DNA of 64,000 nt from IMG/VR virus record IMGVR_UViG_3300045988_176028; one strand, given 5' to 3'. Positions 29 to 33,889 of this stretch are shown one piece after another. Made by a program: the position numbers and the translations under genes. Source of the stretch: a virus. Below the pieces are notes generated by a model. The model was not told the origin of the DNA and ran no database searches. It was given only the letters and a program-made list of their open reading frames with translations. Each line of letters starts with the position of its first letter. Within the stretch, counting starts at the first letter, position 1.

Positions 29-424
29 TCAGACGTACATTCCCTCATGCCAGCCGTGTAGCAAACCCCATTCGGATAGTTTCCGGAACCATTTCTCGCA
101 TTCGTCAGCCACCTTGTTGGGATAATCCAACGTCGGGTTCACGTTGAGTAAATACTGGTAGTCGTAGGGTTGGCAGAAGTTCTCGTCCAACACGTCTATC
201 TGCCAGTCGCTACCGTCCTTGGCAATCTCGACATTCAATGTCATGTCATGGTCGGGGGAGACTGAACAGCAGAGGTACCAATACCCCTCACGGTGGTCAG
301 TGAACCCCAGTCGGCGCATGGTCGAATCTTCGGCGGGACTCATGCTAAGCGCCGCATTGTTCTGATGCTTCGTGTAGGTGACGCCTATGGTCAAGAATCG
401 GGGCGTGTTCTGAGTGTCGAACAT
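29..424 (-). CDS. hypothetical protein, 131 aa
   Basis: Complete ATG ORF. It begins 9 nt below the stop of 433..804, so it is probably co-transcribed from the box at 841..859. No motif recognised. Confidence 0.55.
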   Translation of the reverse strand: MFDTQNTPRFLTIGVTYTKHQNNAALSMSPAEDSTMRRLGFTDHREGYWYLCCSVSPDHDMTLNVEIAKDGSDWQIDVLDENFCQPYDYQYLLNVNPTLDYPNKVADECEKWFRKLSEWGLLHGWHEGMYV

Positions 425-432
425 GTTCTCTC

Positions 433-804
433 CTATTCTTCGCTTTCGCGCAGGTCGATTACCGGAATATGTGTATCGGTGGAATAGTGGACGGAATAAG
501 GGTCGATTGTCCTATGCCGCCAGCTGACGCCACCTTCCACCGGCCAAGCCAGCCAGCCTATGCCGTCCAAATAGTTCAGAATGCTGACGTGGACAATCCA
601 ACGGCACCATCTTGCAGGGCATATCACGTCGAACATGGGAGTATCCTCGGTTCCCGGTCGGCAGGAATGCCGTTGCCAAGAACGCAGATACACGCGATAA
701 AGCGCATAGGAATCATCTGTTGGCAGTTCCTCAGTGTCGAACACCGCGCGAGTTGGGTGGTCATCGAAGAGGATTCGTTTGCCGAATTTAGTTGCTTGAT
801 TCAA
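433..804 (-). CDS. hypothetical protein, ~123 aa (TTG start)
   Basis: Track ORF 433..855 runs through the promoter box. AAGGAGG sits 5 nt upstream of the TTG at 804, so the start is trimmed to 804. Confidence 0.5.
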   Translation of the reverse strand: MNQATKFGKRILFDDHPTRAVFDTEELPTDDSYALYRVYLRSWQRHSCRPGTEDTPMFDVICPARWCRWIVHVSILNYLDGIGWLAWPVEGGVSWRHRTIDPYSVHYSTDTHIPVIDLRESEE

Positions 805-840
805 TGCGTCCTCCTTTTTGGTTTTTGTCTTTGTTTTTGT

Positions 841-859
841 TGTGAACAATCCCACTATA
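841..859 (-). promoter_or_regulatory. conserved promoter/leader box copy
   Basis: Coding-strand text is tatagtgggattgttcaca, preceded by TGT (extended -10). Lies upstream of the start at 804. Confidence 0.6.
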
Positions 860-893
860 ACACAAGGGGGGTAGAAAAACGCAACACGAAAAC

Positions 894-1349
894 CTAAGCC
901 AGCGTTCGATTAAAAAAGAACTCCCTCTTCCCACCTCGATACAAACCCACACGCGAGCCAGACAAACGAAAACCAAAACGACGGAAGAAACCCTCATACA
1001 CCGGCAACAGTTCCTCCGGCACCGTCACCAGAGGAAACTGCTCGCACAGCAAACCCAACGCATATTCGACCAGAGCGGAACCGACTCCTCGATTCCGAAA
1101 GCCCTCGTAAACGCATAAAGTGCAAATCTTCCGTTCCGATGAAGTTCTCTTGAGAACGCAAAACCCCGCCAACCCATCATCCGTGCGGGCTAAAAGAATC
1201 GCACGGTCTTTCCCCAAGGAGGGGAGAACCGTGCGGTCGAACCACGTATCAAAGCCGGGATAATACGTTCGGATTATCTCCGGAATAGGAATAGAAGCCG
1301 CAGTTTCAGCATCCCGAACTACGTCAATCCTCAACGAAACTGAACACAT
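894..1349 (-). CDS. GNAT-family N-acetyltransferase
   Basis: 151-aa ORF with an acetyl-CoA motif A-like segment, FRNRGVGSALVEYAL (R-x-x-G-x-G/A). Size is typical of GNAT proteins. Confidence 0.7.
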   Translation of the reverse strand: MCSVSLRIDVVRDAETAASIPIPEIIRTYYPGFDTWFDRTVLPSLGKDRAILLARTDDGLAGFCVLKRTSSERKICTLCVYEGFRNRGVGSALVEYALGLLCEQFPLVTVPEELLPVYEGFFRRFGFRLSGSRVGLYRGGKREFFFNRTLA

Positions 1350-1569
1350 GAAAATCCGTCACACACTCGACATTGACATGAGTCGTATCATCCGGCCAAA
1401 CATATAAAACCGGCATATAGCCGGACAGTTCTCGAACGGCGAGATTGCTAAAACCGTCCAAGTAGAGGGTTCCGGCCATGGGTTTGCCGTTCCAGTTGAA
1501 AATTGCGGGCTTGCCTTCGAGTTCCTTCCAGTTAATTCCGTCTTGGTAGGGGAGTTCTTTTAAGGTCAT
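1324..1569 (-). CDS. hypothetical protein, 81 aa
   Basis: Complete ATG ORF with GGAAAACCA before the ATG. Overlaps the downstream GNAT start by 26 nt. Confidence 0.5.
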   Translation of the reverse strand: MTLKELPYQDGINWKELEGKPAIFNWNGKPMAGTLYLDGFSNLAVRELSGYMPVLYVWPDDTTHVNVECVTDFHVFSFVED

Positions 1570-1586
1570 TGGTTTTCCTTCTTTGG

Positions 1587-1605
1587 TGTGGACTATCTCA
1601 CTCTA
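1587..1605 (-). promoter_or_regulatory. degenerate copy of the promoter/leader box
   Basis: Coding-strand text is tagagtgagatagtccaca. It keeps the GTCCACA end and the position upstream of the start at 1569, but the -10 hexamer is poor. Confidence 0.3.
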
Positions 1606-1650
1606 ACACAACCGGAGTGGCGTGAAGAAGAAAAATCCCCCTCCCCACAT

Positions 1651-1866
1651 TCAGAATTCCGGCTCCTCGACATTCAGCAACACCAGTTTCGGACGGCGGC
1701 GCAGAATCCTGCAATCCTCTGCCCACGCGTCCAAAATTTCGCAAGCCAATACGGGTGCTTCCGGAGCCAGAGTAGGCATGGTGTTCAGAATCGACTGGAC
1801 GGAGTCTAAGTCTGCGAAGGGAAGTTCTGTCGCATTATTGGCTGCATCCAAAAAATAGTGGGGCAT
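1651..1866 (-). CDS. hypothetical protein, 71 aa
   Basis: Track ORF 1651..1926 trimmed to the ATG at 1866 (MPHYF...), which is preceded by GGAAGGAG. Confidence 0.45.
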   Translation of the reverse strand: MPHYFLDAANNATELPFADLDSVQSILNTMPTLAPEAPVLACEILDAWAEDCRILRRRPKLVLLNVEEPEF

Positions 1867-1869
1867 TCG

Positions 1870-1913
1870 TGCTCCTTCCAAAAATTGAAAAGAAAAAGCC
1901 TGTGGGTAACGAT
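1870..1913 (-). terminator. rho-independent terminator candidate
   Basis: Stem gcctgtgg (1887..1894) pairs with ccacaggc (1906..1913). It is followed on the minus strand by TTTTTCTTTTCAATTTTT. Confidence 0.5.
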
Positions 1914-2017
1914 TTTCCACAGGCATTCTTGGCTTATTATTCGATTTCGCGAGGCTTCAGAACTTTGTCTGAAACACCAGCGCAATCGCGCTCAATAATA
2001 GACTTTTTTACCGACTT

Positions 2018-2182
2018 TTATTCGTCGCACAAGTCGGTGTTGCGTCTGCCATATTTGTTTCGTTTCTTGGCTTGCGGATTCCAAGCGCTACCTGCATCCC
2101 ATTCGATGTGAGTGGAACGGTTTTCCCTGTGAGTGTTGTTCTTGTTGGCATTGCCGGTGTTAATCCAGTCGTGGTTGCTCAT
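2018..2182 (-). CDS. small basic ORF, 54 aa (not in the ORF track)
   Basis: Hand translation gives MSNHDWINTGNANKNNTHRENRSTHIEWDAGSAWNPQAKKRNKYGRRNTDLCDE. It starts 12 nt after the stop of 2195..2569. RBS is weak. Confidence 0.3.
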   Translation of the reverse strand: MSNHDWINTGNANKNNTHRENRSTHIEWDAGSAWNPQAKKRNKYGRRNTDLCDE

Positions 2183-2194
2183 TTTTTTCTACTT

Positions 2195-2569
2195 TCAGTA
2201 GCAGTCATCGCACCAACCGGTGTCCCCGCACGGATTCTCGTTTTCGTCGGTTAGCAGACAACCGCAACCGATGCAATACATGTTGTCCGGATTGTCGGAC
2301 GAAGCGAAAAAACCTTCCCCGACAATGTTACCAGCCAAGTCGGTGATGGTGTAGATTGCCCGAGTATCGGCTTCCGGTGCGGGATAGCCGGACATGCCTA
2401 GAATCCTGTTGTACACGTTCGTCAGTAGAGTGCGAACGTTTCCCGCCTGACGAGTCCCATTCACAATGGGAGCCGTCAAATGGTCGAAGAATCCTACCGT
2501 CGTATCCCAAGAATGCTGACCTTCGTGGATTTCAATTTCCAGCTTTTCCCTACCGTCGGTGAATCGCAT
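2195..2569 (-). CDS. hypothetical protein with Cys-rich C-terminus, 124 aa
   Basis: Complete ATG ORF. C-terminal CIGCGC...CGDTGWCDDCY suggests a small metal-binding knuckle. Starts 10 nt after the stop of 2580..2942. Confidence 0.55.
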   Translation of the reverse strand: MRFTDGREKLEIEIHEGQHSWDTTVGFFDHLTAPIVNGTRQAGNVRTLLTNVYNRILGMSGYPAPEADTRAIYTITDLAGNIVGEGFFASSDNPDNMYCIGCGCLLTDENENPCGDTGWCDDCY

Positions 2570-2579
2570 TTTCGTTTTC

Positions 2580-2942
2580 CTACAATTCCCTCATGGCCTT
2601 GTCTAAATCGGACACAATCGCGTCATACAGTCCGTCAACGTTCAACGATTCCAGCTTGTGCGACGGCAAATCCACGGGAGCGTATTCCCCGTCGTCGAAA
2701 GTCCAATGCTCGACCGAAACCGTGTATACTCCTCCACTCCAACGGTAGGAACGTCTGCCGTTATGTTGCGAGTCTGCCACAAGATAGTATTCGAACATCT
2801 TGCCCATGTATGGGCATTGGAATGCGACTTCGATTCCGTCTCCGAAGATGGCGTGGGTGGCGTGTGCGCCGGTCACGTATGGGATTTTGACGAGCTTGTC
2901 AATGAGTTTCCGGTAGGTGTCTTCGCTGATTTTCGAGTACAT
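2580..2942 (-). CDS. hypothetical protein, 120 aa
   Basis: Track ORF 2580..2969 trimmed to the ATG at 2942 (MYSKISEDTYRK), downstream of the box at 2981..2999. Confidence 0.55.
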   Translation of the reverse strand: MYSKISEDTYRKLIDKLVKIPYVTGAHATHAIFGDGIEVAFQCPYMGKMFEYYLVADSQHNGRRSYRWSGGVYTVSVEHWTFDDGEYAPVDLPSHKLESLNVDGLYDAIVSDLDKAMREL

Positions 2943-2980
2943 TCTTTTTCCTTTTTCTGTATGGGTCAAACCCTTGTTTG

Positions 2981-2999
2981 TGTGGACGGTTCCAGTATA
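2981..2999 (-). promoter_or_regulatory. conserved promoter/leader box copy
   Basis: Coding-strand text is tatactggaaccgtccaca, preceded by TGA (TGn extended -10). Confidence 0.6.
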
Positions 3000-3138
3000 T
3001 CATACAAATGACGACATCCCCAAAAAACAGCACACGCCCTACTTGACCTCAGCCTTCAATGTTTGTTGGAAGATACTTTGCGACGGGGCCAGTCGAAGGA
3101 CGGCTCCCCTTGACTGACCCGTGAGGTGCCGGATGGTT

Positions 3139-3993
3139 TCAGCCGTGCAACGCGGTGATGATTTCGTCAGCGGCCTTACGGACATGCTCGGCGGTGGAAC
3201 GTACAAGCTTGGGGTCGGCATCGCTCCACCCCGCCACGTAGCGGATGGAATACTCGCCGGTGTCCATTCCCATGTATTTGGCCACCACGTACGCGACGCT
3301 TTCCGCCTCGGTCTCATAGATGCCGCGATGCCGACCGTATTCACCTTCCGGCAACCCCTGATGGAGAAGCATGTGGGCCGTTTCATGCAGGATGGTCTTG
3401 GCGTCCTGCCTCGGGCTGTTCTGCTCGTTGAGCATGATTCGTCTGCTTCCATCCATCGTGGTGTAGCCTTTGACGTCCCTTCCCATCGACTCATGCCCCA
3501 CTCGCCAATGTTTGGATTCGAGCCAAGCGGTCATGCGTCCGACGAGTCCGAGCGCGTCTGCGCCTTCAAGCTCGGACGGCTTCATCTGTTCGATGGGGTC
3601 GGTCTCCTTGTCGATGGGGTCGGTCTGGGATACGTCGAACACCGTCAAGATGGGATACCAGACTTTTTGGATAGGGTCGCCGTTCTCGTCTAACTGTGGG
3701 TTGCCGTCTTCGTCCTTGACGGTTCTGGTGCTGAAGCCGAAGATTTTCATGCCGTGTTCGCCTTTGCGCACGACGCGCCCGCGTGTCTGCCATTGGCGGA
3801 ATCCGGCGACCAGCGATGAGTTGCCGTTCGATTGCATGAGCATTAGCAGGATGTTGTTCCAGCTATATTGGTGGAAACGTCCCATGAAATCGAGGTAGCG
3901 CTGCCAAGTGCCGGAGTTTCGCAGCTCCTTCACGCCGGTTTCGATGTCCTTGCGCAGTTCTTCGATTCGTTCCCCGTGTTGTTTGCTTGCCAT
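3139..3993 (-). CDS. ardC: ArdC-like antirestriction protein (ssDNA-binding N-domain plus HExxH metalloprotease domain)
   Basis: N-terminal ArdC/DUF1738-type motifs (YSWNNILLMLMQ, FRQWQTRGRVVRKGEHGMKIFGF). C-terminal zinc motif ILHETAHMLLH. 284 aa is typical of the family. Confidence 0.8.
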   Translation of the reverse strand: MASKQHGERIEELRKDIETGVKELRNSGTWQRYLDFMGRFHQYSWNNILLMLMQSNGNSSLVAGFRQWQTRGRVVRKGEHGMKIFGFSTRTVKDEDGNPQLDENGDPIQKVWYPILTVFDVSQTDPIDKETDPIEQMKPSELEGADALGLVGRMTAWLESKHWRVGHESMGRDVKGYTTMDGSRRIMLNEQNSPRQDAKTILHETAHMLLHQGLPEGEYGRHRGIYETEAESVAYVVAKYMGMDTGEYSIRYVAGWSDADPKLVRSTAEHVRKAADEIITALHG

Positions 3994-4036
3994 TTCGTTG
4001 TTCCTTTTCGGTCACGTACGGGAGGTGTCAGCGCGG

Positions 4037-4297
4037 TCAGCAGCAGTATTCGTTGACTGCGTTGACGAGTTCAGCCATGCTCATGCCGTACACGTCGCTG
4101 TGGCGGGGGTAGATGTCTTTTGCGAAGAGTCTGTTTTGCATGATAGTGCGGGCTTCGGGACTTTGAACGAGTTTCACGCTTTCGGGGAAGGTGCTTGAGA
4201 GGGCGTTGTCGTTGATTTGTTTGGCGTATTCGGCTGCTTGTTTTTTGGGCATTTTCTTGACGTTGATTGCGCCGCCGATGTAGTGGATTGCGTACAT
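4037..4297 (-). CDS. hypothetical protein, 86 aa
   Basis: Track ORF 4037..4354 trimmed to the ATG at 4297 (MYAIHYIGG), preceded by AAAAGGAG. The removed N-terminus is just the translated promoter box. Confidence 0.55.
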   Translation of the reverse strand: MYAIHYIGGAINVKKMPKKQAAEYAKQINDNALSSTFPESVKLVQSPEARTIMQNRLFAKDIYPRHSDVYGMSMAELVNAVNEYCC

Positions 4298-4329
4298 GTT
4301 ATGTGCTCCTTTTTGCCTATCGCTCTTTA

Positions 4330-4348
4330 TGTGAACAATTCCACTATA
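4330..4348 (-). promoter_or_regulatory. conserved promoter/leader box copy
   Basis: Coding-strand text is tatagtggaattgttcaca, preceded by TGC. Upstream of the 4297 start; ardC follows with no box of its own. Confidence 0.6.
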
Positions 4349-4430
4349 GCACACTTGAGTGAAACCTCAAAACCCCAAAAAAACAAAAGCGGGACACCAA
4401 AACAGCATCCCGCCTTCCCTCCGTCAAACC

Positions 4431-5397
4431 TTAATCAGACAAACCGGCACGGGCACGCATCTTGCGTTTAATCTCGCTACCCTTGGCGAACAGGCGCTCC
4501 ATACGGGCCACGGTCTGCAACGCCTTCTTATACTCCTCCAATCGAGAAGAGATTTGCCAATTACGAGGTTCCGCCAACGACTCCTCAATCAGAGAATCGG
4601 GAACATCCCACATAAAGGACATAATCCAACGGCGGTTTTCCCCGCCCATGCGACGCCACAAGCGCACGGCACGCTTACCTTTGACCCATTCCGGATTATT
4701 AAACAAGACTTGGATGGCGGATTCGTCGGAGAGGGAGTCCAGCAATGGGTCTATGTCCGTTTCTTCCGCCAACGGTGCTGATAGGATGCGGATGGTTTCA
4801 TCATCGCTTTTCACCCAATGCTCGAAGCAGAGCCTATCGGCCAGCTTGTTTTCCACCATGTAGCGGATAACGTCGTAATCCGTTTCCTCCCAGTACAGGC
4901 TTGCAACGGTATGCTTTGCGGCGAGCTTGCGTAGTTCGGGGTCTTTGTCCTTAGCGAGGCTGGTCGCGGTCTTGTAGTTGAGTTTTCCCCTTGTATTCCA
5001 AATATTCGGCCACTTTGCGGCGAACGTCCCGACTCCGGTCTTTCAACACGGTTTCGCGTAATCCGTCGTATACGTTTCCGTCCTTGACTTCCATGTTGTA
5101 TTCCAGTTTGCAGTTGACGTAGTAGTGGCGGAACGGTAGGGGGAGAGGGAATATTCTTCCACTCTGGTAGATGTTCTTAATGCTTTCCAGCAGGTCGATT
5201 CCCTTGTTGGTAAGCTTCCAACGGTCGCGTTCCTTGTTTAGTTCGATTAGGTTGGCTTCCTTGAATTTATCTAAGGGCTTCTGGTCGATGTATGCGCTCA
5301 GTCGTTGTGAATGGGTTTCATTGTCGAAGTCTTCGAAGCAGTAAACGAGGTTGGCAGTCCACTTTTTGGTAAGACTGTTGATTGCGTCGTTGTCCAT
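4431..5397 (-). pseudogene. frameshifted paralog of the 6312..7235 repeat protein
   Basis: ORF 4951..5397 (...RRKVAEYLEYKGK) and the frame containing ORF 4431..4859 join to align colinearly with 6312..7235. The frames switch at an A4 run on the coding strand (plus tttt, 4983..4986). Confidence 0.6.
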
Positions 5398-5422
5398 GGT
5401 TTCTCCTTCTCGGCATATCTTG

Positions 5423-5441
5423 TGTGAACAATTCCAGTATA
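5423..5441 (-). promoter_or_regulatory. conserved promoter/leader box copy
   Basis: Coding-strand text is tatactggaattgttcaca. Upstream of the ATG at 5397 (RBS GAGAAGGAG). Confidence 0.6.
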
Positions 5442-5557
5442 GCCTAAGTTGAGATAAAACACAACACGCAACCAAGCCAAAACGAAGACGCAATCCCCGC
5501 CCATACGAAAAAAAGGAATACGCCCACATGATTTTCCTGCGGGCGTATTCCCATGTT

Positions 5558-5866
5558 TTAGTTCAGAAGTCCGGAGCGATACAGAATCCTGCGGATATTG
5601 ATACTGTGGACGAAAGCGGTGTCAGGCTGTCCAACGAAGTCGGCAAGCTGCTCGTCGGAGCACGTCTCGTCAACGGCGGCATCCAAAAACACCTCAGTCG
5701 GAGAGTCGAACATCCTACAGCCGACGCCAGCATGACCCTCGATGTGCTCAAACAAGGCGAAGTAGGTCATGTTCTCGTCCGCAACGCGCAACATGACATA
5801 GGAGGCATTGCCGTTGTGGAAGATGTTGTAGTCCTCTGCTCCGAATCGTGCGAAATACTCGTTCAT
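5558..5866 (-). CDS. hypothetical protein, 102 aa (paralog of 11231..11572)
   Basis: Trimmed to the ATG at 5866 (MNEYFARFGAEDYNIF...). Shares GAEDYNIF, LFEH[IV]EG and IRR[IL]L blocks with 11231..11572. Confidence 0.6.
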   Translation of the reverse strand: MNEYFARFGAEDYNIFHNGNASYVMLRVADENMTYFALFEHIEGHAGVGCRMFDSPTEVFLDAAVDETCSDEQLADFVGQPDTAFVHSINIRRILYRSGLLN

Positions 5867-5889
5867 TGTGGCTCTTTCTCTCATATTTG

Positions 5890-5908
5890 TGTGAACAATT
5901 CCAGTATA
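5890..5908 (-). promoter_or_regulatory. conserved promoter/leader box copy
   Basis: Coding-strand text is tatactggaattgttcaca, preceded by TGA. Confidence 0.6.
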
Positions 5909-6003
5909 TCATATTTAAGAGAAAGCGCAAAAGCGCAAAAAAACAAAAAGCCGTGCAAATACAAAAAGCATTCACACGACTCGGAAATTTTTACCACTAT
6001 TAG

Positions 6004-6300
6004 TTAGTCAAAGTCCGACGGTTCACCATTGACGTAGTTCAAAAACTGGTCGAAGGCATATTGCGCGGTATCCTCATAACGGCATGGCTTCGGCTGTGCG
6101 TTCTTTTCCCGCTCTTTCTGCTCTATTAACTGGTCTATTTGGCTTTGCTCATTGCGGTGTTGCCACGCGAGAGGCTCGTTGCCTTGGGCTAGGTTCTCAT
6201 ACACCGTGTATTCGTGCCCACGATAGCTGTAGACAAGATAGACCATATGTGCGTCATATCCGTGCCCGTAGTATTTCCTAATGAATGTCGCTTTTCGCAT
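6004..6300 (-). CDS. hypothetical protein, 98 aa
   Basis: Track ORF trimmed to the ATG at 6300 (MRKATFIRKYYGHGYD). Starts 12 nt after the stop of 6312..7235. Confidence 0.5.
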   Translation of the reverse strand: MRKATFIRKYYGHGYDAHMVYLVYSYRGHEYTVYENLAQGNEPLAWQHRNEQSQIDQLIEQKEREKNAQPKPCRYEDTAQYAFDQFLNYVNGEPSDFD

Positions 6301-6311
6301 TGCTGCCCCTT

Positions 6312-7235
6312 TCAGCCAATCTCGTGCTCGGCACGCTCCCAAATCTTCCGGCGAATCTCACTGTCCTCGGAAAACATGAAGCCAAGCTCCAACACTTGAC
6401 GGACGGCTTCTCGGTATTCCTCCAAACGGTCATGCAAGGCCATGTACGCGTCGCTCTTGAACGCCTGATTGATGAACGAGTCCGGCATGTCGCGCATGAC
6501 CTTGACCAGTCTGTAACATCCCACCTCGTCCGCGTTCTCCCAAGCGTTCATGACACGCTCACAAGTGGCCCACTGCGGCTCGTCGGCCAGCACATGCGCC
6601 ACATCCTGCGGGTTAAGACGGGCCAACACTTCATCCACCTTGCCGTCTTCGGTCAGGAGAGCCGCCTGAACGCGAATCTGACTGTTGGGATTGTCCAGCC
6701 AATGTTCGACGCATTCCTTATCGAAGTTATGGTTATAGATAAGGGTTTTGACCACACGCTCGTCCGACTCCTCGAAGAAGAGGTGAGGGTCTGCGTTCTT
6801 TGCCGCCATGAGTCGAATCTGATAATCCTCGTCGTGGGCCAAACCGTTCGACGTTTCCTTGTCGAGCTTGCTGAACTTGTTGAGCATTGTGGCCGCTTTC
6901 TTGCGAATCTCGGCGCTCCTGTCATGTAGGGCCACTTTGGATAGTTCCTTGACGGGTAGTTTCTTTTCGTCGTATACGCGCCAGTCGAAGTAGTAGTTAC
7001 GGACTTTCAGGGGTAGTTCGGAGAGTTTGCCGGAGTTGAAATGCTGTCTAATGTTGGCGAGTTCGTCTTCGCCTGTTTGGGTGAGAGTCCAGTCGCCCGT
7101 CTCGTTTTCCTGAATGAGTCCGGCTTTGGCGAGTTTGGTGATGTCGCGGTCGGGGAATACTCGGCGTTCGGGTTCGCGCTCGAATCGCATGAATTCGTAG
7201 ATTGCGGTTTCGTTCCAGTTGATGTTGTCGCTCAT
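6312..7235 (-). CDS. helical-repeat (HEAT/LRV-like) protein, 307 aa
   Basis: Trimmed to the ATG at 7235 (MSDNINWNE), RBS AAGGAG. Recurrent H/D-x-D/S-x-x-[IV]R-x-x-AA segments (HDRSAEIRKKAA, HDEDYQIRLMAAKN, NPNSQIRVQAA) resemble HEAT/LRV repeats. Confidence 0.65.
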   Translation of the reverse strand: MSDNINWNETAIYEFMRFEREPERRVFPDRDITKLAKAGLIQENETGDWTLTQTGEDELANIRQHFNSGKLSELPLKVRNYYFDWRVYDEKKLPVKELSKVALHDRSAEIRKKAATMLNKFSKLDKETSNGLAHDEDYQIRLMAAKNADPHLFFEESDERVVKTLIYNHNFDKECVEHWLDNPNSQIRVQAALLTEDGKVDEVLARLNPQDVAHVLADEPQWATCERVMNAWENADEVGCYRLVKVMRDMPDSFINQAFKSDAYMALHDRLEEYREAVRQVLELGFMFSEDSEIRRKIWERAEHEIG

Positions 7236-7261
7236 TTCTGCTCCTTTTGGTTTCCTGTTTG

Positions 7262-7280
7262 TGTGAACAGTTCCAGTATA
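7262..7280 (-). promoter_or_regulatory. conserved promoter/leader box copy
   Basis: Coding-strand text is tatactggaactgttcaca. Upstream of the ATG at 7235. Confidence 0.6.
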
Positions 7281-7299
7281 GTACAGAATAGAGAAATGC

Positions 7300-7677
7300 T
7301 CAACCCCGAACCCAATCAACCAAACGCCCGAAACCATCAAACGGAACCAACGAATACACCAACCAGCCAACAAGCGCCAGCAATGCAAGCGCCGCAATCG
7401 CATACACCAGCGTACCTACGAACAAGCCAGCCAAAAACACGTTCATCTGCCGTTTGCGTTGCTCCAGCAGCTCATACCATTCGCTTTCGCACCGGTCGAA
7501 TGCGTCAGCATCCATGCCGGTGCCTCCATGGGCTTGAAGCCAATCGCGTACGGTCGGCATGGGAGGCAGCGGGTCGGATATGCAAGCGTGCGGTACAAGC
7601 GCGGTTTTAAGCCCTTGCCAAACGCCGTTGAAAAAGAACGCGGGAAAACGTGCGGCCTTCACCGTGCTGGGTATCAT
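7300..7677 (-). CDS. membrane protein, 125 aa
   Basis: The ATG at 7677 overlaps the TGA of 7674..8393 (ATGA coupling). C-terminal hydrophobic stretch VFLAGLFVGTLVYAIAALALLALVGWLVY. Confidence 0.5.
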   Translation of the reverse strand: MIPSTVKAARFPAFFFNGVWQGLKTALVPHACISDPLPPMPTVRDWLQAHGGTGMDADAFDRCESEWYELLEQRKRQMNVFLAGLFVGTLVYAIAALALLALVGWLVYSLVPFDGFGRLVDWVRG

Positions 7678-8393
7678 TTTTTCACCTGCTGCCTTCGTCC
7701 GACAATCTTCTTGCCGCCCACGCTCCGCAACCATGCCAAGCCATGACCATAGGAGACCATACCGGCTTCGACGGTTGGATTCTGCTGGAACATGTAATGC
7801 ACTTCCGCGAGTCCATTGCCTCCGTTTGTTTGCAGAATACGAATCCCGTAATCCTTTTCGACTGCCTTGACCGCCATGTCCCGTTCGAGTTCGTCGAACC
7901 AGCCGTAGAGCGGGAGCATGGCGAATGCGGTCAATGCGCCTACGGCGATGAACCGCCAACATGTTTTCGCTCCTACCAACAATGCGATTGCCGCCACGAG
8001 AATTCCAATGACGGCGATTCCCGTCAACAGTTGACGCCATTTGCCGTTGCAGTCGTATTCGACGGGCGCGTACGGGTTGGTGGGGGTTGGTGTTGGAGGT
8101 GCGGTTTTGTTGGTTTTGCGTGTGGCGGGCTTGTAGGCTTTCGGAGCGGTTTTGTTTACTGTTGAAGTGGTTTTCTCGCTCGTCTTGCTGGCGGTTTCGT
8201 CGGTGTTTTCGGTGGACTTGTCCGCTGTTTTCGGTTCGAATTTCAATGGTGGTGCCGGTGGGTTCAACATCTTTCGTTCCGTCTTCTTCACGATTTCTTG
8301 CAGTTCGATGGTGGTGGACGAGTCGGGTTCATCCATCGGTTCCTGACCTAACATCATGAGGTCGTTTTCCAGTGAGATGTTCCGTTCTTTCAT
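7674..8393 (-). CDS. membrane protein with Thr/Pro/Lys-rich linker, 239 aa
   Basis: Trimmed to the ATG at 8393 (MKERNISLEND), RBS GAAAGGAAG. Two predicted TM helices (LLTGIAVIGILVAAIALLVGA, FIAVGALTAFAMLPLYGW). Confidence 0.55.
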   Translation of the reverse strand: MKERNISLENDLMMLGQEPMDEPDSSTTIELQEIVKKTERKMLNPPAPPLKFEPKTADKSTENTDETASKTSEKTTSTVNKTAPKAYKPATRKTNKTAPPTPTPTNPYAPVEYDCNGKWRQLLTGIAVIGILVAAIALLVGAKTCWRFIAVGALTAFAMLPLYGWFDELERDMAVKAVEKDYGIRILQTNGGNGLAEVHYMFQQNPTVEAGMVSYGHGLAWLRSVGGKKIVGRRQQVKK

Positions 8394-8425
8394 GTAATTC
8401 TTCCTTTCTTTTTTGCCAAATATGA

Positions 8426-8463
8426 GAGAAGTAGAAGGAAGGAGTAATACGGCAGTCTTCCAA
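8426..8463 (-). repeat. 38-nt repeat family, copy A
   Basis: Coding-strand text is ttggaagactgccgtattactccttccttctacttctc. 35/38 identical to copy B at 33890..33927. Confidence 0.75.
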
Positions 8464-8481
8464 TTCCAATCTTGGTGTGGG

Positions 8482-8790
8482 TCAGAGGATTCGGGTTCCC
8501 TTGCGGGTGACGAGCATGATTCTGTTTTCGTGACGGTTCTCGAAAACGTCCCAATTGCCACTCAGGACAGCCAAGCACACGTTGCCTTTGATGAGGTTCC
8601 AACGTTCGTCGCAGTTGGATACGACGTGCTTCCAGTTGATTGGATTGGGCTTGTGGTGGGAGGTTTCCACGATAGCTTCGTTCATGGGCTTGTCCGCGTA
8701 GGTGTGGTCGTAGGTGTTGTCTCCGGCGACTACGCTGATGGTGCCGTTGTCGTGGAAGATTGGCTGGTAGTAGGTTTTGGTGTCGTTCAT
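8482..8790 (-). CDS. hypothetical protein, 102 aa
   Basis: Trimmed to the ATG at 8790 (MNDTKTYYQPIF), RBS AAGGAG. Confidence 0.55.
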   Translation of the reverse strand: MNDTKTYYQPIFHDNGTISVVAGDNTYDHTYADKPMNEAIVETSHHKPNPINWKHVVSNCDERWNLIKGNVCLAVLSGNWDVFENRHENRIMLVTRKGTRIL

Positions 8791-8821
8791 TTGTTCTCCT
8801 TGGTTGGCTCCGCCTGTTTTA

Positions 8822-8840
8822 TGTGGACATTTCCAGTATA
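8822..8840 (-). promoter_or_regulatory. conserved promoter/leader box copy
   Basis: Coding-strand text is tatactggaaatgtccaca, preceded by TGC. Confidence 0.6.
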
Positions 8841-8918
8841 GCACGTTTGGATAAATATACAAAACAAGACACGTCCACACAAAAAGCCCCGCCAAAACGA
8901 CGGGGCCACAAACCAAAA

Positions 8919-9119
8919 CTATCGATTCATGCTCAATCGAATCTTGACCGCGACGACCAGCAACGCGACTATGAGGGCGCAGACCGACACGACGCCGAAC
9001 GTGCGGCCAAACGTGAACAGCCAAGTGCCGAACGAGTAGATGCCGAACGCGACTGCGGTGGTCACTCCACAGAACGCGATGGTGACGAGCGTCATGAGCA
9101 GAACATCCTTGATATGCAT
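8919..9119 (-). CDS. small two-TM membrane protein, 66 aa
   Basis: Trimmed to the ATG at 9119 (MHIKDVLLMTLVTIAF...), RBS AAAGGAG. Two hydrophobic helices. Confidence 0.5.
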   Translation of the reverse strand: MHIKDVLLMTLVTIAFCGVTTAVAFGIYSFGTWLFTFGRTFGVVSVCALIVALLVVAVKIRLSMNR

Positions 9120-9159
9120 TTTTCTCCTTTTGGTGACGGGTTTTGCGAACCCTTGTTTG

Positions 9160-9178
9160 TGTGAACAATTCCAGTATA
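9160..9178 (-). promoter_or_regulatory. conserved promoter/leader box copy
   Basis: Coding-strand text is tatactggaattgttcaca. Confidence 0.6.
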
Positions 9179-9252
9179 CATCATGGTGGGATACGACACG
9201 CCAAACAAAAAGCGCCCCACCCATCCAAGGGAGAGGCGCTAAAACCCGACGG

Positions 9253-9630
9253 TCAGAACTCATACTCGCAATCGGAATCGAGATACCATTTGTCGCCGTA
9301 ACCCCAAAGAACACGACGGATGGTCGCAGGGTCGTTCAGCTCCACGAACTTGGACGCCAATTCATCCACCGGCATGGCGGAAAAAGCCTTATCCACGGAA
9401 CCGTAGAATCTATCCCATTCCGCCTGTTCGGCGTCGGAATCGACAAGCTCATGGAACCGTTCGGCAAGCTTTTTGTCCGGTAGGGTGACTTCCGCAAAAT
9501 TCGTATCCTCTATGTCCAGCCAAGCGTTGAAACACTTGTCGGCCAAGGCTTCGACTGGGATGGTGAGGATGCTGGAATACGTGCCTTTCCACGCGTTCCT
9601 TTTGAAGAAGCTAACGTCTCTTGCCTTCAT
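9253..9630 (-). CDS. acidic hypothetical protein, 125 aa
   Basis: Trimmed to the ATG at 9630 (MKARDVSFFKRN), RBS AGGAGG. Asp/Glu-rich. Confidence 0.55.
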   Translation of the reverse strand: MKARDVSFFKRNAWKGTYSSILTIPVEALADKCFNAWLDIEDTNFAEVTLPDKKLAERFHELVDSDAEQAEWDRFYGSVDKAFSAMPVDELASKFVELNDPATIRRVLWGYGDKWYLDSDCEYEF

Positions 9631-9643
9631 TTTCCCGTTCCTC

Positions 9644-10137
9644 CTATTCTTCCTCGCCGTCCGTCTGACGGAGCGGGACGATACGGTTCCACTGTTCCTC
9701 ATACTCGTCCTCCGCGTCCTTGGAACCATTGTCCAGCAGTTTGTTCAACGTGGCTCGTCCTACGTCGCTGAGACGGCTGATGCTGCGGAGGATGCTCGCC
9801 ACGTCGTCGGCTTCGTATAATTTGTTGCGATTGTCCAAAAGTTCCTGATACTTCGAGTCGGTGAGGTTCCAGAGATAGTCTTCCAGTAGTTTCCAGTCTT
9901 CTTTTTCGGCAGAGGGTACTGGAATCGGCTTGGTGAGCCGCCAATCTTCGAGAATGTCCGCCCAAGGGTCGGTCTTGACATTGTATTCGCCAAGGTCTTC
10001 CTCGTGGGTGAGTTTTTCGATTCGCTGTTCTTCGCCATCCTCGTCCAAGTAGTCTATTGTGAGATATTCACTATCCACTGACAAGGTGGAGAGTTCGCGT
10101 AGTTTGGTGATTTTGAGGTTGGTGATTGTCTTAATCA
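9644..10137 (-). CDS. highly acidic hypothetical protein, 164 aa
   Basis: Trimmed to the ATG at 10137 (MIKTITNLK), RBS AAGGAGG. Very Asp/Glu-rich and ends in DGEEE. Confidence 0.55.
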
Positions 10138-10170
10138 TTTTTGTTCCTCCTTGTTGGAATCTATCTTTTG

Positions 10171-10189
10171 TGTGAACAATCCCAGTATA
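10171..10189 (-). promoter_or_regulatory. conserved promoter/leader box copy
   Basis: Coding-strand text is tatactgggattgttcaca, preceded by TGG. Confidence 0.6.
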
Positions 10190-10250
10190 CCATGTTTGGT
10201 AGAAAAACAAAAACAGCCCACCTCCCAAATCAGGAAGACGGGCTGAAAAG

Positions 10251-11075
10251 TCAGGCATTCAGCAAAGCATGGGACGAAACACCCATTTCAGACAAGCCCA
10301 AACCCACATTGTTCGCGTCGCTCACACCACAAACGAACCCAGCCTTGCTACCACGGGCGGTGGCGACGCGAGCTGCTTCCAGTTCGAGATTGTCGAAATA
10401 GTCGTTGACACGCTGGCTCTTGCGGGCCACAAGCTCACGACCGGAGGGAATGTCCAAGCTCTGCTTGCGAAGCTCCTCGAAACGTTCGCTTAAACGTTCG
10501 TTGAATCCACCGCGATAACCATAGTAGAACTTGGCGCGTGGATAATCACGACGCATGTACTGTTTGCATTCCGTCAGCGTCGGATAGGATTCATGTCCGT
10601 AATGCGTTTCGACGTATTCCTTGTTGTCCTCATAGTACGCTTTGGCGTGCTGGTCAATCATGTCCGCGTAGCTAGTGCGGGCGTGGACTGAGCAGTACAG
10701 GTCGATGCTTTGGAAGAGAATGACTGCGGCGTTCACATCGTCCTCCTCGCCTACGAACATGACGGCACGTTCCTCAATCCTTCCGCCACACCGGCTTTCG
10801 TGAAGGTAGGCGCGGCATTCGTTAGCTTGGGCGATGATGGTCGCAAGGTAGCCTTGCTGATGGTAGATGGTGGTTTTGCTTACGTTCACGCCACGTTCGA
10901 TGATTGGCTTGTTCGTGCGGGTGCGGTCGCGTTTCCAGTCTTCGATACGATATTCGTTGATGAGTTTCTGTGCCCGCTCGAACGCCATTTGCGCCTCATT
11001 GTCACTGGAAGCTTCGTTTTCGGCTATTGCCATAAGGTTGTTGATACGTTCGATGATGGTGTTGATGTCGCTCAT
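10251..11075 (-). CDS. DUF2786-like domain protein, 274 aa
   Basis: N-terminus IERINNLMAIAENEASSDNEAQMAFERAQKLINEY matches the DUF2786 pattern common in plasmid and phage genes (from memory). Confidence 0.6.
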   Translation of the reverse strand: MSDINTIIERINNLMAIAENEASSDNEAQMAFERAQKLINEYRIEDWKRDRTRTNKPIIERGVNVSKTTIYHQQGYLATIIAQANECRAYLHESRCGGRIEERAVMFVGEEDDVNAAVILFQSIDLYCSVHARTSYADMIDQHAKAYYEDNKEYVETHYGHESYPTLTECKQYMRRDYPRAKFYYGYRGGFNERLSERFEELRKQSLDIPSGRELVARKSQRVNDYFDNLELEAARVATARGSKAGFVCGVSDANNVGLGLSEMGVSSHALLNA

Positions 11076-11107
11076 TTTTTACTCCTTGTGTTTCAGACTT
11101 CTTTTTG

Positions 11108-11126
11108 TGTAAACAATTCCAGTATA
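11108..11126 (-). promoter_or_regulatory. conserved promoter/leader box copy
   Basis: Coding-strand text is tatactggaattgtttaca. Confidence 0.55.
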
Positions 11127-11230
11127 CCTGAGTATGAACACAACACGCCCAAAAACACGCAAACAACCCTCAGAAAAACAAAAACGCTCCCCAGTCCAAA
11201 AGGCAAGAAGAACGCTATCCGACAAAAACC

Positions 11231-11572
11231 TCAGGCACCAAGCTTGGAATGGTGCAGAAGCCTACGGATATGGATATTGTGAACGAACCGACTATGACCA
11301 TTAATCCTCTTGGCGAACTCCCCATCGGAATACTCACCATCCGGAATACCATTCAGAACGTTCTCCGGAATGTCTGGAAGGGACTCCGGAAGACGCTCAA
11401 ACATGTAATAGTTGACACCCTCACATCCTTCGACATGCTCGAAAAGCATGAAGTAGGCACCCTCGGGGTCGTCCATGAAACGGCTCAGAACATAGGACTT
11501 GGACTTGTTAGCGTTGGCGAAGATGTTGTAATCCTCGGCACCATATTGGGTGAAATATGTGGACTTGTTCAT
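11231..11572 (-). CDS. hypothetical protein, 113 aa (paralog of 5558..5866)
   Basis: Complete ATG ORF, RBS AAGGAG. Shares the YGAEDYNIF and LFEHVEG blocks with 5558..5866. Confidence 0.6.
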   Translation of the reverse strand: MNKSTYFTQYGAEDYNIFANANKSKSYVLSRFMDDPEGAYFMLFEHVEGCEGVNYYMFERLPESLPDIPENVLNGIPDGEYSDGEFAKRINGHSRFVHNIHIRRLLHHSKLGA

Positions 11573-11604
11573 TTTTTCTCCTTATGTCCTTCAACTTACT
11601 TTTG

Positions 11605-11623
11605 TGTGAACGATTCCAGTATA
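11605..11623 (-). promoter_or_regulatory. conserved promoter/leader box copy
   Basis: Coding-strand text is tatactggaatcgttcaca. Confidence 0.6.
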
Positions 11624-12896: not shown

Positions 12897-12969
12897 GTTT
12901 TGTTGTTCTGGGCGGTTTAGCATGGACAAGCTGGAAGAATTCAAGCTTGCCACCATTTGACATTTACCA

Positions 12970-13003
12970 GAAAGCCCCTCAACTAAGGGGGCTTTCCTCT
13001 TTT
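12970..13003 (+). terminator. rho-independent terminator
   Basis: Stem gaaagcccc pairs with ggggctttc, followed by ctcttttg. Lies between the convergent genes ending at 12896 and 13005. Confidence 0.65.
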
Positions 13004-13004
13004 G

Positions 13005-14620: not shown

Positions 14621-14889
14621 GACAGTTTCCTTTCACTCAAACGGCATACTCTGACCAATGCGCTGATAACCTCTAAAGCCCCACATGGGCGAAGTCCCGA
14701 GGAAGGAAATGCAAGTAAACCCAGTGTAACACCAAGCTGGGAAGAAAAACTAGCCGACAAGCATGCCGAGTGAAATACGATACAATCCAAGCCTCACGAA
14801 ATCTCATCCAAACGATTGAGGAAGCGGAAGATTCTGCGCCACCGCTTCCAGCAGATTACACCCCTCCACCAATCTGGAAAGTCCGGAAA

Positions 14890-18030: not shown

Positions 18031-18041
18031 TCTTGTTCCTT

Positions 18042-33888: not shown

Positions 33889-33889
33889 A

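What the first reader, a model, noticed from the sequence alone, without database searches (positions are those of the whole stretch)
29..11623. Island of about 24 small same-strand genes with ArdC and very acidic proteins: candidate establishment/anti-defence region
- All genes from 29 to 11572 are on the minus strand and short. They are arranged in 1-3-gene units, each behind the conserved box.
- The only recognisable products are an ArdC-like antirestriction protein (3139..3993), a GNAT acetyltransferase and a DUF2786-like protein.
- Several products are strongly acidic (9253..9630, 9644..10137). This is the composition seen in DNA-mimic anti-restriction proteins.
- Known conjugative plasmids concentrate anti-defence and establishment genes in a unidirectional leading region. 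This island has that architecture.
- No oriT is identified here, so the assignment is an inference.
Basis: partly seen in the sequence, partly recalled or inferred. Interest (0 to 1): 0.65.

Follow-up and report, generated by a model that had tools for sequence, protein, structure and literature searches.

The report
Promoter-box gene cassette array on Bifidobacterium-type megaplasmid
This is the first 11.6 kb of a roughly 26-kb run of small, mostly unknown genes on a common gut (Bifidobacterium-type) conjugative megaplasmid, each little group switched on by the same plasmid-specific promoter box. One gene is a credible anti-restriction factor, but the claim that the whole block is an anti-defence "leading region" is plausible and unproven.

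Summary
There are 23 minus-strand genes (54-307 aa), all under purifying selection. They sit in 12 cassettes, about half of them with a detected terminator just upstream, each behind a conserved box (TGnTATACT-GGAAyTGTTCACAyAAA; 16 matches in the window against 0.01 expected).

Pfam recognises only an ArdC-like protein, a GNAT and a DUF2786/DUF7168 protein.

Three things need correcting:
- **Extent.** The island is not bounded at position 29. It continues about 15 kb further left through about 27 more same-strand genes, into a VirB4-like ATPase and a cell-wall hydrolase.
- **The box.** It is the published 34-bp motif of the Bifidobacterium megaplasmid pMP7017. It also drives plus-strand genes elsewhere in the window. 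It is an ordinary double-strand extended -10 promoter, not an Frpo-like single-strand promoter.
- **Acidity.** Only one product is markedly acidic (net -20 over 164 aa), and its predicted fold matches no known DNA mimic.

The element is an uncharacterised but very common lineage, about 215-225 kb, of the pMP7017 family. Cassette content varies between relatives; ArdC itself comes and goes.

My best reading is a co-regulated, hypervariable establishment or counter-defence regulon. Leading-region status cannot be tested, because no oriT or relaxase is known for this family.

The parts
11603..11623 (-). promoter box 1 (core TATACTGGAATCGTTCACACA in gene orientation); drives g23
   Evidence: matrix score 43.0
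11231..11572 (-). g23, 113 aa, no family; paralogue of g13 (42% identity)
   Evidence: dN/dS 0.27
11106..11126 (-). promoter box 2; drives g22
10251..11075 (-). g22, 274 aa, DUF2786 + DUF7168 (phrog_421); 30% identical homologue in pMP7017
10214..10245 (-). intrinsic terminator after g22
10169..10189 (-). promoter box 3; drives g21-g20
9644..10138 (-). g21, 164 aa, the one markedly acidic product (net -20, pI 4.36); family restricted to these megaplasmids; predicted beta-sheet plus helical fold with no match in PDB or BFVD
9253..9630 (-). g20, 125 aa, moderately acidic (net -10); no family; dN/dS not tested (best relatives 36-50% identical)
9211..9240 (-). terminator hairpin plus T-run after g20
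9158..9178 (-). promoter box 4; drives g19
8919..9119 (-). g19, 66 aa, two predicted membrane helices
8885..8907 (-). intrinsic terminator after g19
8820..8840 (-). promoter box 5; drives g18-g17-g16
8482..8790 (-). g18, 102 aa, no family
7674..8393 (-). g17, 239 aa, basic, two predicted membrane helices
7300..7515 (-). g16, 71 aa, membrane protein; weak homologue in pMP7017
7260..7280 (-). promoter box 6; drives g15-g14
6312..7235 (-). g15, 307 aa, N-terminal winged-helix-like domain plus HEAT-like alpha-solenoid (AF2 pLDDT 87); present in every relative examined including pMP7017
6004..6300 (-). g14, 98 aa, no family
5948..5982 (-). intrinsic terminator after g14
5888..5908 (-). promoter box 7; drives g13
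5558..5866 (-). g13, 102 aa, acidic; paralogue of g23
5508..5558 (-). inverted repeat (terminator-like) after g13
   Evidence: I3
5421..5441 (-). promoter box 8; drives g12-g11
4951..5397 (-). g12, 148 aa: N-terminal half of a 321-aa g15 paralogue, cut by a 1-nt insertion at about 4997
4431..4859 (-). g11, 142 aa: C-terminal half of the same split gene (intact in L002, L003 and L007)
4385..4417 (-). intrinsic terminator after g11
4328..4348 (-). promoter box 9; drives g10 and ArdC
4037..4297 (-). g10, 86 aa, no family; kept in relatives that lack ArdC
3139..3993 (-). g9, ArdC-like: ArdcN ssDNA-binding domain (residues 10-114) plus M78/IrrE-type zinc peptidase domain with HETAH at residue 203; absent from relatives L024 and L025
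2979..2999 (-). promoter box 10; drives g8-g5
2580..2942 (-). g8, 120 aa, no family
2195..2569 (-). g7, 124 aa, acidic (pI 4.27), Cys-rich C-terminus
2018..2182 (-). g6, 54 aa, very hydrophilic
1651..1866 (-). g5, 71 aa, acidic
1585..1605 (-). degenerate box (matrix score 23); probably drives g4-g3
1324..1569 (-). g4, 81 aa; 45% identical to part of a pMP7017 protein
894..1349 (-). g3, 151 aa, GNAT acetyltransferase
839..859 (-). promoter box 11; drives g2-g1 and onward
433..804 (-). g2, 123 aa (TTG start behind AAGGAGG), no family
29..424 (-). g1, 131 aa, no family; the array continues beyond the window edge

Best explanation
The region is the promoter-proximal 11.6 kb of a roughly 26-kb, roughly 50-gene, single-strand array. 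It lies on a 215-225-kb conjugative megaplasmid of the Bifidobacterium pMP7017 family, in a lineage that has not been characterised.

**How it is built (shown).** The array consists of 12 cassettes of 1-4 small genes, about half with a detected terminator just upstream. Each cassette is driven by one copy of a family-specific box. The box is an extended -10 promoter (TGnTATACT) fused to a near-invariant GGAAyTGTTCACAyAAA, which spans the predicted transcription start. A Shine-Dalgarno site and start codon follow 21-38 nt later. This box is the homologue of the 34-bp motif that precedes about a quarter of pMP7017 genes.

**How it is regulated (inferred).** The conserved +1 to +17 part is probably the operator of a plasmid-encoded regulator, most simply a repressor. 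Every cassette would then be co-regulated and would be expressed most strongly when the regulator is scarce, for example just after the plasmid enters a new cell. Expression starts from double-stranded DNA, not from a folded transferred strand.

**What it does (inferred).** The cargo is accessory and turns over quickly. Whole cassettes, ArdC included, are present in some relatives and absent in others. I read the cargo as establishment and counter-defence functions. These include the ArdC-like ssDNA-binding metalloprotease against restriction, a GNAT, DUF2786/DUF7168, three small membrane proteins and HEAT-repeat proteins. A DnaQ-like exonuclease and an RNA ligase lie further downstream.

Only ArdC has homology-based support for an anti-defence role.
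For: - Element identity: DnaB is 52-53% identical to pMP7017 and B. longum megaplasmids, and the CobQ-like / 398 aa / 886-aa ATPase / 1335 aa / ParA block is syntenic. g15 homologues occur in B. pseudocatenulatum and B. catenulatum. The exact ArdC protein is indexed in 986 collection blocks, on contigs up to 226 kb.
- Box statistics and anatomy. The same motif is published for pMP7017 as a probable transcription-factor site overlapping the -10 (PMC10832533). I recovered 12 copies in pMP7017 with a strict pattern.
- Terminators lie upstream of boxes.
- The genes are real: dN/dS is below 0.65 for the 22 genes that could be tested.
- Cassette turnover: ArdC is absent in L024 and L025, g21 is absent in L006 (with only a 37%-identical g20 relative elsewhere in that locus), and g23 is absent in L006. 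The two clean indel junctions fall within 60 nt upstream of boxes.
- ArdC domains and the HExxH motif are intact, with 0 nonsynonymous against 15 synonymous differences to L006.
- The pMP7017 regulon includes an SSB, an N6/N4 methyltransferase, a DnaQ-like exonuclease and an RNA ligase.
- 42 of 47 families of box-proximal genes across relatives have no Pfam domain.
Against: - No regulator has been identified, and no expression data could be obtained for this element.
- In pMP7017, six box promoters were first found upstream of genes highly expressed in log-phase carriers. This does not fit tight repression.
- The pMP7017 regulon also holds Cas genes, a sortase and a WhiB. It is therefore broader than establishment or anti-defence.
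- 20 of 23 island products have no significant family match, and the two structures I predicted resemble no known anti-defence protein.
- The conserved downstream half of the box would also be the first 10-15 nt of every transcript. An RNA-level role is not excluded.
Confidence: 0.55

Rival explanations
1. It is a classical leading region. The array would be the first DNA to enter the recipient. Its genes would be encoded so that the transferred strand is the template, and they would be expressed early to block recipient defences.
For: - The array is unidirectional and contains an ArdC-like gene.
- It points toward, and is co-oriented with, a VirB4-like ATPase and a peptidoglycan hydrolase. 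This is the same geometry as F: leading genes, then oriT, then tra genes.
- In Cellulomonas plasmid p110066 the ArdC-like gene sits in a same-strand array with ParB-like genes, pointing toward mobC.
- Leading regions concentrate anti-defence genes on the T-strand (PMC11541004).
Against: - No oriT, nic site, relaxase or MobC was found in the window or in pMP7017. PLSDB types pMP7017 as non-mobilizable.
- pMP7017 carries FtsK/SpoIIIE-type translocases, so even single-strand transfer is an assumption.
- The 11 box regions do not fold better than shuffled controls as ssDNA (z from -1.9 to +1.4). They are not Frpo-like.
- The same box drives genes on the opposite strand at 32-61 kb.
- Co-orientation covers the whole arm of more than 55 kb, not just the island.
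Confidence: 0.25
2. It is ordinary accessory cargo behind a strong, reusable promoter module. The box would simply be the plasmid's preferred constitutive promoter, and the small genes would serve diverse, mostly non-defence roles such as surface, metabolic or maintenance functions.
For: - Box-driven genes are highly expressed at steady state in pMP7017, and that regulon is functionally mixed, with Cas genes, a sortase, a WhiB and carbohydrate-related genes.
- Three island products are small membrane proteins.
- No family or fold links 20 of the 23 products to defence.
Against: - Fifteen nucleotides downstream of the -10 are conserved across lineages whose proteins are only 23-53% identical. 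A bare promoter does not need this.
- An ArdC-like gene is present, and SSB and methyltransferase genes occur in the homologous regulon.
- Cassette-level turnover is typical of conflict loci.
Confidence: 0.15
3. It is the early, host-takeover region of a giant phage or phage-plasmid, with many small early genes each behind a strong conserved promoter.
For: - IMG/VR lists many box-bearing contigs of 110-205 kb as viral.
- There are phage-associated families: DUF2786 (phrog_421), DUF3310 and a PHA02142-type RNA ligase.
- pMP7017 carries tRNAs, a tmRNA and CRISPR-Cas, as huge phages do.
Against: - The complete pMP7017 record has no capsid, portal or terminase annotated.
- pMP7017 is reported as conjugative and replicates from an iteron/RepB origin (PMC8313286).
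- The window carries sortase-dependent pilus and adhesin genes, two ParA-type ATPases and T4SS-like ATPases.
Confidence: 0.05

Closest known systems
The 34-bp promoter-overlapping motif regulon of Bifidobacterium breve megaplasmid pMP7017 (Dineen et al. 2024, PMC10832533)
   Same: - The box is homologous: TATACTGAATATGTCCACATAAA against TATACTGGAATTGTTCACACAAA, same length and same position over the -10.
- It lies within 60 nt upstream of start codons, occurs in many copies per plasmid, and is specific to the plasmid family.
- The backbone is homologous (DnaB 53%, syntenic T4SS/ParA block).
- DUF2786, the g15-like HEAT protein, a DnaQ-like exonuclease and an RNA ligase are box-driven in both.
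   Different: - Only 4 of the 23 island proteins have any homologue in pMP7017, at 23-45% identity.
- There is no nucleotide match to any PLSDB plasmid.
- pMP7017 has no ArdC-like gene of this type.
- Here the boxes are packed into one dense array, 12 in 11.6 kb. My strict pattern found only 12 copies across the whole 190 kb of pMP7017.
Leading-region anti-defence islands of conjugative plasmids (Samuel et al. 2024, PMC11541004)
   Same: It is a unidirectional run of small genes, many uncharacterised. It contains an anti-restriction gene, varies between relatives, and lies on a conjugative element.
   Different: - No oriT is known, so leading status is untested.
- The promoters are ordinary double-strand promoters with a shared operator-like element, not folded single-strand Frpo/ssi promoters.
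- The same promoter is used on both strands of the plasmid.
CUP-controlled leading-region regulon of IncN plasmid pKM101/R46 (ArdK-repressed repeated upstream elements; recalled from the literature, not tested here)
   Same: A repeated conserved upstream element precedes each of several small leading-region operons, including anti-restriction genes. This gives one-regulator control and a burst of expression on entry.
   Different: - The host phylum and the sequence are different.
- The CUP repeats are much longer.
- The regulator here is unknown, and the link to transfer polarity has not been shown.
ArdC of IncW plasmids pSa/R388 (ssDNA-binding anti-restriction metalloprotease; knowledge of the family)
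   Same: It has the N-terminal ArdcN domain and a C-terminal HExxH zinc-peptidase domain, in a conjugative plasmid.
   Different: - The peptidase domain scores as M78/IrrE-type.
- The closest relatives (44-47% identity) are on Micrococcales plasmids.
- There is no sequence-level hit to any solved structure.
- Activity is untested.

Membership tests
pMP7017-family 34-bp motif regulon | Conserved motif that overlaps the -10 hexamer TATACT and extends about 17 nt downstream | tested here: met
   Alignment of 17 window copies. Per-position information content is high from the -10 to +17. pMP7017 copies were recovered with a related pattern.
pMP7017-family 34-bp motif regulon | Motif lies within about 60 nt upstream of translation starts and recurs across the plasmid | tested here: met
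   Distances from box to start codon are 21-38 nt for the 11 island copies. There are 17 strong copies in 64 kb, on both strands.
pMP7017-family 34-bp motif regulon | Host replicon is a pMP7017-related megaplasmid | tested here: met
   The best DnaB plasmid hits are pMP7017 and B. longum megaplasmids at 52-53%. A T4SS/ParA block is syntenic. Contigs are 214-226 kb. RepB and its iterons were not seen in this window.
Plasmid leading-region anti-defence island | Lies next to oriT on the side that enters the recipient first | tested here: inconclusive
   Pfam and NCBIfam hits from scans of most larger window ORFs include no relaxase or MobC. No 3-His relaxase motif occurs in any real ORF of the window or pMP7017. 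pMP7017 is typed non-mobilizable. About 26 kb of the array was followed without meeting an oriT-like landmark.
Plasmid leading-region anti-defence island | Genes encoded so that the transferred strand is the template | not testable with these tools
   All 23 genes share one strand, but which strand is transferred is unknown.
Plasmid leading-region anti-defence island | Single-strand (Frpo/ssi-type) promoters upstream of the genes | tested here: not met
   The 11 box regions, folded as 150-nt ssDNA, give z-scores from -1.9 to +1.4 against shuffles. The -10 is not held in a conserved hairpin.
Plasmid leading-region anti-defence island | Contains recognised anti-defence, SSB, methyltransferase or SOS-inhibitor genes | tested here: inconclusive
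   Only the ArdC-like gene lies in the island. SSB and methyltransferase genes occur in the homologous pMP7017 regulon. No ArdA, PsiB, Acr or SSB was detected here by Pfam or PHROGs.
Plasmid leading-region anti-defence island | Early, transient expression in new transconjugants | not testable with these tools
pMP7017 data cover steady-state cultures only.
ArdC anti-restriction proteins | N-terminal ArdcN ssDNA-binding domain | tested here: met
   PF08401 at 48.2 bits against a cut-off of 22.6, residues 10-114.
ArdC anti-restriction proteins | C-terminal zinc metalloprotease domain with HExxH | tested here: met
   Peptidase_M78 at 35.8 bits against a cut-off of 22. HETAH lies at residue 203.
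ArdC anti-restriction proteins | Protects incoming DNA from type I restriction in the recipient | not testable with these tools
   This is a functional assay. Only sequence conservation was seen: 0 nonsynonymous against 15 synonymous changes to L006.
DNA-mimic anti-restriction proteins (ArdA, Ocr type) | Extreme negative charge density | tested here: inconclusive
   g21 is -0.12 per residue and g20 is -0.08. From memory, ArdA and Ocr are roughly -0.17 to -0.25.
DNA-mimic anti-restriction proteins (ArdA, Ocr type) | Fold or sequence related to a known mimic | tested here: not met
   For the g21 model (pLDDT 78), the best Foldseek E-value is 0.38 in PDB and 0.07 in BFVD, with TM at most 0.24. 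There is no Pfam or PHROG hit.

The most novel reading that the evidence does not exclude
The box-cassette array could be a plasmid-wide 'entry burst' regulon. In this reading one plasmid repressor sits on the +1 box of some 50 genes, so they all fire when the plasmid arrives in a cell that lacks the repressor. Many of the roughly 20 families without known relatives would be new counter-defence proteins aimed at the restriction-modification and CRISPR systems of bifidobacteria. Cassettes would be swapped between plasmids by recombination at or beside the boxes, which would make the array an integrase-free cassette exchanger.
Probability: 0.2. Interest if true: 0.75.

Novelty: new member of a known kind. 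Interest (0 to 1): 0.45.

Why it matters
- **Practical value.** Bifidobacteria are hard to engineer, partly because of their restriction-modification systems (stated in the introduction of PMC8313286). This plasmid lineage is very common in the metagenome collection, where the exact ArdC protein appears in 986 blocks. If part of the array really neutralises recipient defences, it offers about 20 conserved, compact candidate proteins. It also offers a ready-made portable promoter for improving DNA delivery into these bacteria.
- **Plasmid biology.** It would extend the 'anti-defence island' idea to an actinobacterial megaplasmid family that uses repeated double-strand promoter-operator boxes instead of single-strand promoters.
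- **If untrue.** The region is still a clean example of the pMP7017 motif regulon in a new lineage.

Tried and rejected
- **Nucleotide search.** Megablast of the island against PLSDB gave no match.
- **Family scans.** Pfam and PHROGs scans of all 23 island products gave significant hits for only three. NCBIfam scans of g15, g17 and eight larger unknown proteins elsewhere in the window gave only one weak hit, below cut-off, to a mobilome membrane protein. PADLOC gave the GNAT only a weak match to a candidate family, PDC-M11A (E 3e-05), and no match to a named defence system.
- **Host search.** The ArdC protein was searched in one genome per GTDB species. There were no close relatives, so the host could not be named directly.
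- **DNA-mimic idea for the acidic protein.** There was no fold match.
- **g15 fold.** It is a generic HEAT-like solenoid with a winged-helix-like head, which gives no functional assignment.
- **Frpo-like single-strand promoters.** Rejected.
- **Relaxase hunt.** A 3-His motif search found only spurious-frame hits.
- **Other searches.** Rfam gave nothing for the whole window. PDB sequence searches for ArdC and DUF2786 gave nothing. The leading-region paper does not mention DUF2786, DUF3846, DUF3310 or ArdC. The 2015 pMP7017 discovery paper is not held.
- **GNAT as a toxin.** I considered and dropped a TacT/AtaT-type toxin role. The upstream partner g4 is not DUF1778, and its pMP7017 homologue is not next to a GNAT.

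Full report
**What is there**

Between 29 and 11572 every credible gene is on the minus strand. I refined starts with Shine-Dalgarno sites and compared them with independent gene calls on near-identical metagenome contigs. This gives 23 genes of 54-307 aa. They are real genes: 22 of the 23 have orthologues at 55% identity or more in at least one of three diverged relatives, with dN/dS of 0.03-0.62. The exception is g20, whose best matches are only 36-50% identical.

Pfam recognises only three products:
- an ArdC-like protein at 3139-3993, with an ArdcN domain plus an M78/IrrE-type peptidase domain and an intact HETAH at residue 203;
- a GNAT at 894-1349;
- a DUF2786+DUF7168 protein at 10251-11075.

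PHROGs adds nothing beyond an unknown-function family for DUF2786.

Other features of the set:
- Three products are small membrane proteins (g16, g17, g19).
- g13 and g23 are paralogues.
- g12 plus g11 are the two halves of a 321-aa paralogue of g15. They are split in this window by a single inserted base near 4997. The gene is intact in some otherwise near-identical contigs.

**The conserved box**

The 21-nt core occurs 16 times in the window within 3 mismatches, against 0.01 expected. A position matrix finds 11 strong copies and one degenerate copy inside the island. All are oriented with the genes and lie 21-38 nt upstream of a start codon.

Read in gene orientation, the box is TGnTATACT followed directly by GGAAyTGTTCACAyAAA. 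That is an extended -10 promoter with a weak, variable -35, fused to about 17 conserved bases that span the expected transcription start.

Six cassettes are preceded by a terminator hairpin just upstream of the box. The island is therefore a string of 12 cassettes of 1-4 genes, about half of them terminator-insulated.

The box is not private to the island. Six strong copies face the other way and precede plus-strand genes at 32222, 54989, 58012, 58331, 59872 and 61170.

**What the element is**

There is no nucleotide match in PLSDB. At protein level, the DnaB helicase is closest (52-53%) to the Bifidobacterium breve megaplasmid pMP7017 and to B. longum megaplasmids. A block consisting of a CobQ-like ATPase, a 398-aa protein, an 886-aa ATPase, a 1335-aa membrane protein and ParA is syntenic with pMP7017.

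The window also carries a sortase, a pilin and a 1792-aa adhesin. Homologues of g15 at 64% identity are annotated in B. pseudocatenulatum and B. catenulatum.

The exact ArdC protein is indexed in 986 blocks of the metagenome collection, on contigs of 214-226 kb. One contig is 100% identical to the window across the 10.4 kb of the island that the fetched stretch covers. This is therefore a very common but undescribed lineage of the pMP7017 family. No representative genome in GTDB holds a close relative.

**The box is already known in this family**

Dineen et al. 2024 (PMC10832533) described a 34-bp motif in pMP7017, AWAYATGY-TATACT-GAATATGTCCACATAAAAWA. It overlaps the -10 and occurs in 19 copies. 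They predicted that it drives 56 genes, about 24% of the plasmid's coding capacity.

They found it absent from bifidobacterial chromosomes and proposed it as a transcription-factor site. Six copies were found because they precede highly expressed genes in log-phase carriers.

I recovered 12 copies in pMP7017 with a strict pattern, and they align without gaps to the window's box. Their regulon table includes Cas genes, a WhiB, a DnaQ-like exonuclease, an RNA ligase, an N6/N4 methyltransferase and an SSB.

**The island is larger than reported and is mosaic**

On near-identical contigs the same-strand array continues past the window edge. It runs through a DnaQ-like exonuclease, an RNA ligase, a DUF3310 protein and more small genes behind weaker boxes. 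It then reaches an 886-aa AAA_10 (VirB4-like) ATPase and a 777-aa CHAP/glucosaminidase hydrolase. In all this is about 26 kb and about 50 genes.

To the right, nearly every gene up to about 32 kb is also on the minus strand. Co-orientation is therefore a property of a whole plasmid arm, not of the island.

Cassette content differs between relatives:
- ArdC is present in the window lineage and in L006, with 0 nonsynonymous against 15 synonymous differences.
- ArdC is absent from L025 and from the B. pseudocatenulatum contig L024.
- g21 is absent from L006, which has only a 37%-identical g20 relative at a different position; g23 is also missing there.
- Extra cassettes and an IS200/IS605 insertion appear in L006.
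- The two clean indel junctions lie within 60 nt upstream of boxes.

Synonymous divergence jumps from 0.03 to 1.4 between neighbouring genes, which indicates recombination. Only 4 of the 23 proteins have any homologue in pMP7017.

Across 228 box-proximal genes collected from relatives, 42 of 47 families have no Pfam domain.

- *Leading region.* I could find no relaxase, MobC or oriT in the window or in pMP7017. PLSDB types pMP7017 as non-mobilizable. pMP7017 carries FtsK/SpoIIIE translocases. Transfer polarity, and even single-strand transfer, are therefore unknown for this family.
- *Geometry.* The array is transcribed toward, and is co-oriented with, T4SS-type genes. This is what the F paradigm would predict. 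The closest ArdC-like gene in a Cellulomonas plasmid sits in a comparable array pointing at mobC. This is suggestive only.
- *Single-strand promoters.* The 11 box regions fold no better than shuffled controls as ssDNA, with z from -1.9 to +1.4. They are not Frpo-like, so expression needs double-stranded DNA.
- *Acidity.* Only g21 stands out (net -20 over 164 aa). g20 is ordinary for this replicon, and a more acidic box-driven protein lies at 55041-55412.
- *g21 structure.* g21 is confined to this plasmid family. Its AlphaFold model (pLDDT 78) has no match in PDB or BFVD.
- *g15 structure.* g15 models well (pLDDT 87) as a winged-helix-like head on a HEAT-like solenoid, which is a generic binding scaffold.

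**Most likely mechanism**

Shown: a dense array of promoter-box cassettes on a pMP7017-family megaplasmid. It carries one credible anti-restriction gene and many conserved genes of unknown function, with cassette-level turnover.

Inferred: the conserved +1 to +17 element is an operator for a plasmid-encoded regulator. All cassettes would then be co-regulated and would be expressed most strongly when the regulator is scarce, as just after entry. On this reading the cargo serves establishment and counter-defence.

Arguments against a simple repressor model:
- Expression of some pMP7017 box genes is high at steady state.
- That regulon is functionally mixed.
- An RNA-level role for the shared 5' leader is not excluded.

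g15 is box-driven, has a winged-helix-like domain and is conserved in every relative. That makes it a speculative candidate for the regulator.

**Verdict**

Its defining test, position relative to oriT, cannot be made, and the single-strand promoter test fails.

The feature is a new member of a known kind. It is the pMP7017 motif regulon in a new, common lineage, arranged as a hypervariable cassette array. It is moderately interesting as a source of candidate counter-defence genes for bifidobacteria.

Noticed in passing
window 32222-34941 (+): A box at 32222 heads a plus-strand run of five small unknown genes. The run ends in a 330-aa AAA ATPase that matches IetA of the IetAS defence system (PADLOC E 5e-62). 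No obvious IetS protease partner was identified.
   Followed up: partly
window 11739-16119: Directly upstream of the island lie a divergent 385-aa AAA_16 ATPase and then, on the minus strand, a 409-aa reverse transcriptase with two unknown downstream genes (203 and 335 aa). The reverse transcriptase gives generic or DRT-like PADLOC hits. This may be a defence-type RT module. It is absent from the B. pseudocatenulatum relative L024.
   Followed up: partly
window 37150-38027: An unusual non-coding stretch of about 850 nt with 42% GC and AT skew +0.55 (A-rich on the plus strand). It lies just upstream of the CobQ/ParA-like gene that opens the T4SS-like block. There is no Rfam hit. It could be a long leader, a centromere or an origin-like region.
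   Followed up: no
window 4431-5397: A 321-aa HEAT-repeat gene is split into two ORFs by one inserted base near 4997. Both the split and the intact forms occur in otherwise at least 99.9% identical metagenome contigs, so this looks like a polymorphism present in several assemblies rather than an assembly error.
   Followed up: yes
window 55041-55412 (+): This is the most acidic protein of the window (123 aa, pI 4.07, net -0.16 per residue). It lies immediately behind a box at 54989, outside the reported island. It has no Pfam family.
   Followed up: partly
IMG/VR contigs (loci L028-L084): Dozens of box-bearing contigs of 110-205 kb are catalogued as viral genomes in IMG/VR. pMP7017 has no annotated virion genes and is reported as conjugative. 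These are probably megaplasmids misfiled as viruses, or else an unrecognised phage-plasmid lifestyle.
   Followed up: partly
window 17098-26190 (-): A cluster for a sortase-dependent surface structure: a DUF6273 protein, a 1792-aa RCC1/SdrD-B adhesin, a sortase and a backbone pilin. It parallels the sortase, pilin and adhesin genes of pMP7017.
   Followed up: no
L027 14540-14600 (about 14.6 kb left of the window start): A tandem pair AGTCGAAACCA ... AGTCGAAACCA lies between a strong terminator and the VirB4-like ATPase gene. This is where the small-gene array ends, which makes it a place to look for an operator or oriT-like site.
   Followed up: no
window 53582-54607 (+): A 341-aa protein with a GmrSD C-terminal (DUF1524-type) nuclease domain. 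pMP7017 has a DUF1524 protein at a comparable place. It may be a restriction enzyme for modified DNA.
   Followed up: no
window 3139-3993 vs L006 10001-10855: The ArdC protein is 100% identical between two lineages whose flanking genes are 66-98% identical. This points to very strong constraint or to recent exchange of this one cassette.
   Followed up: partly
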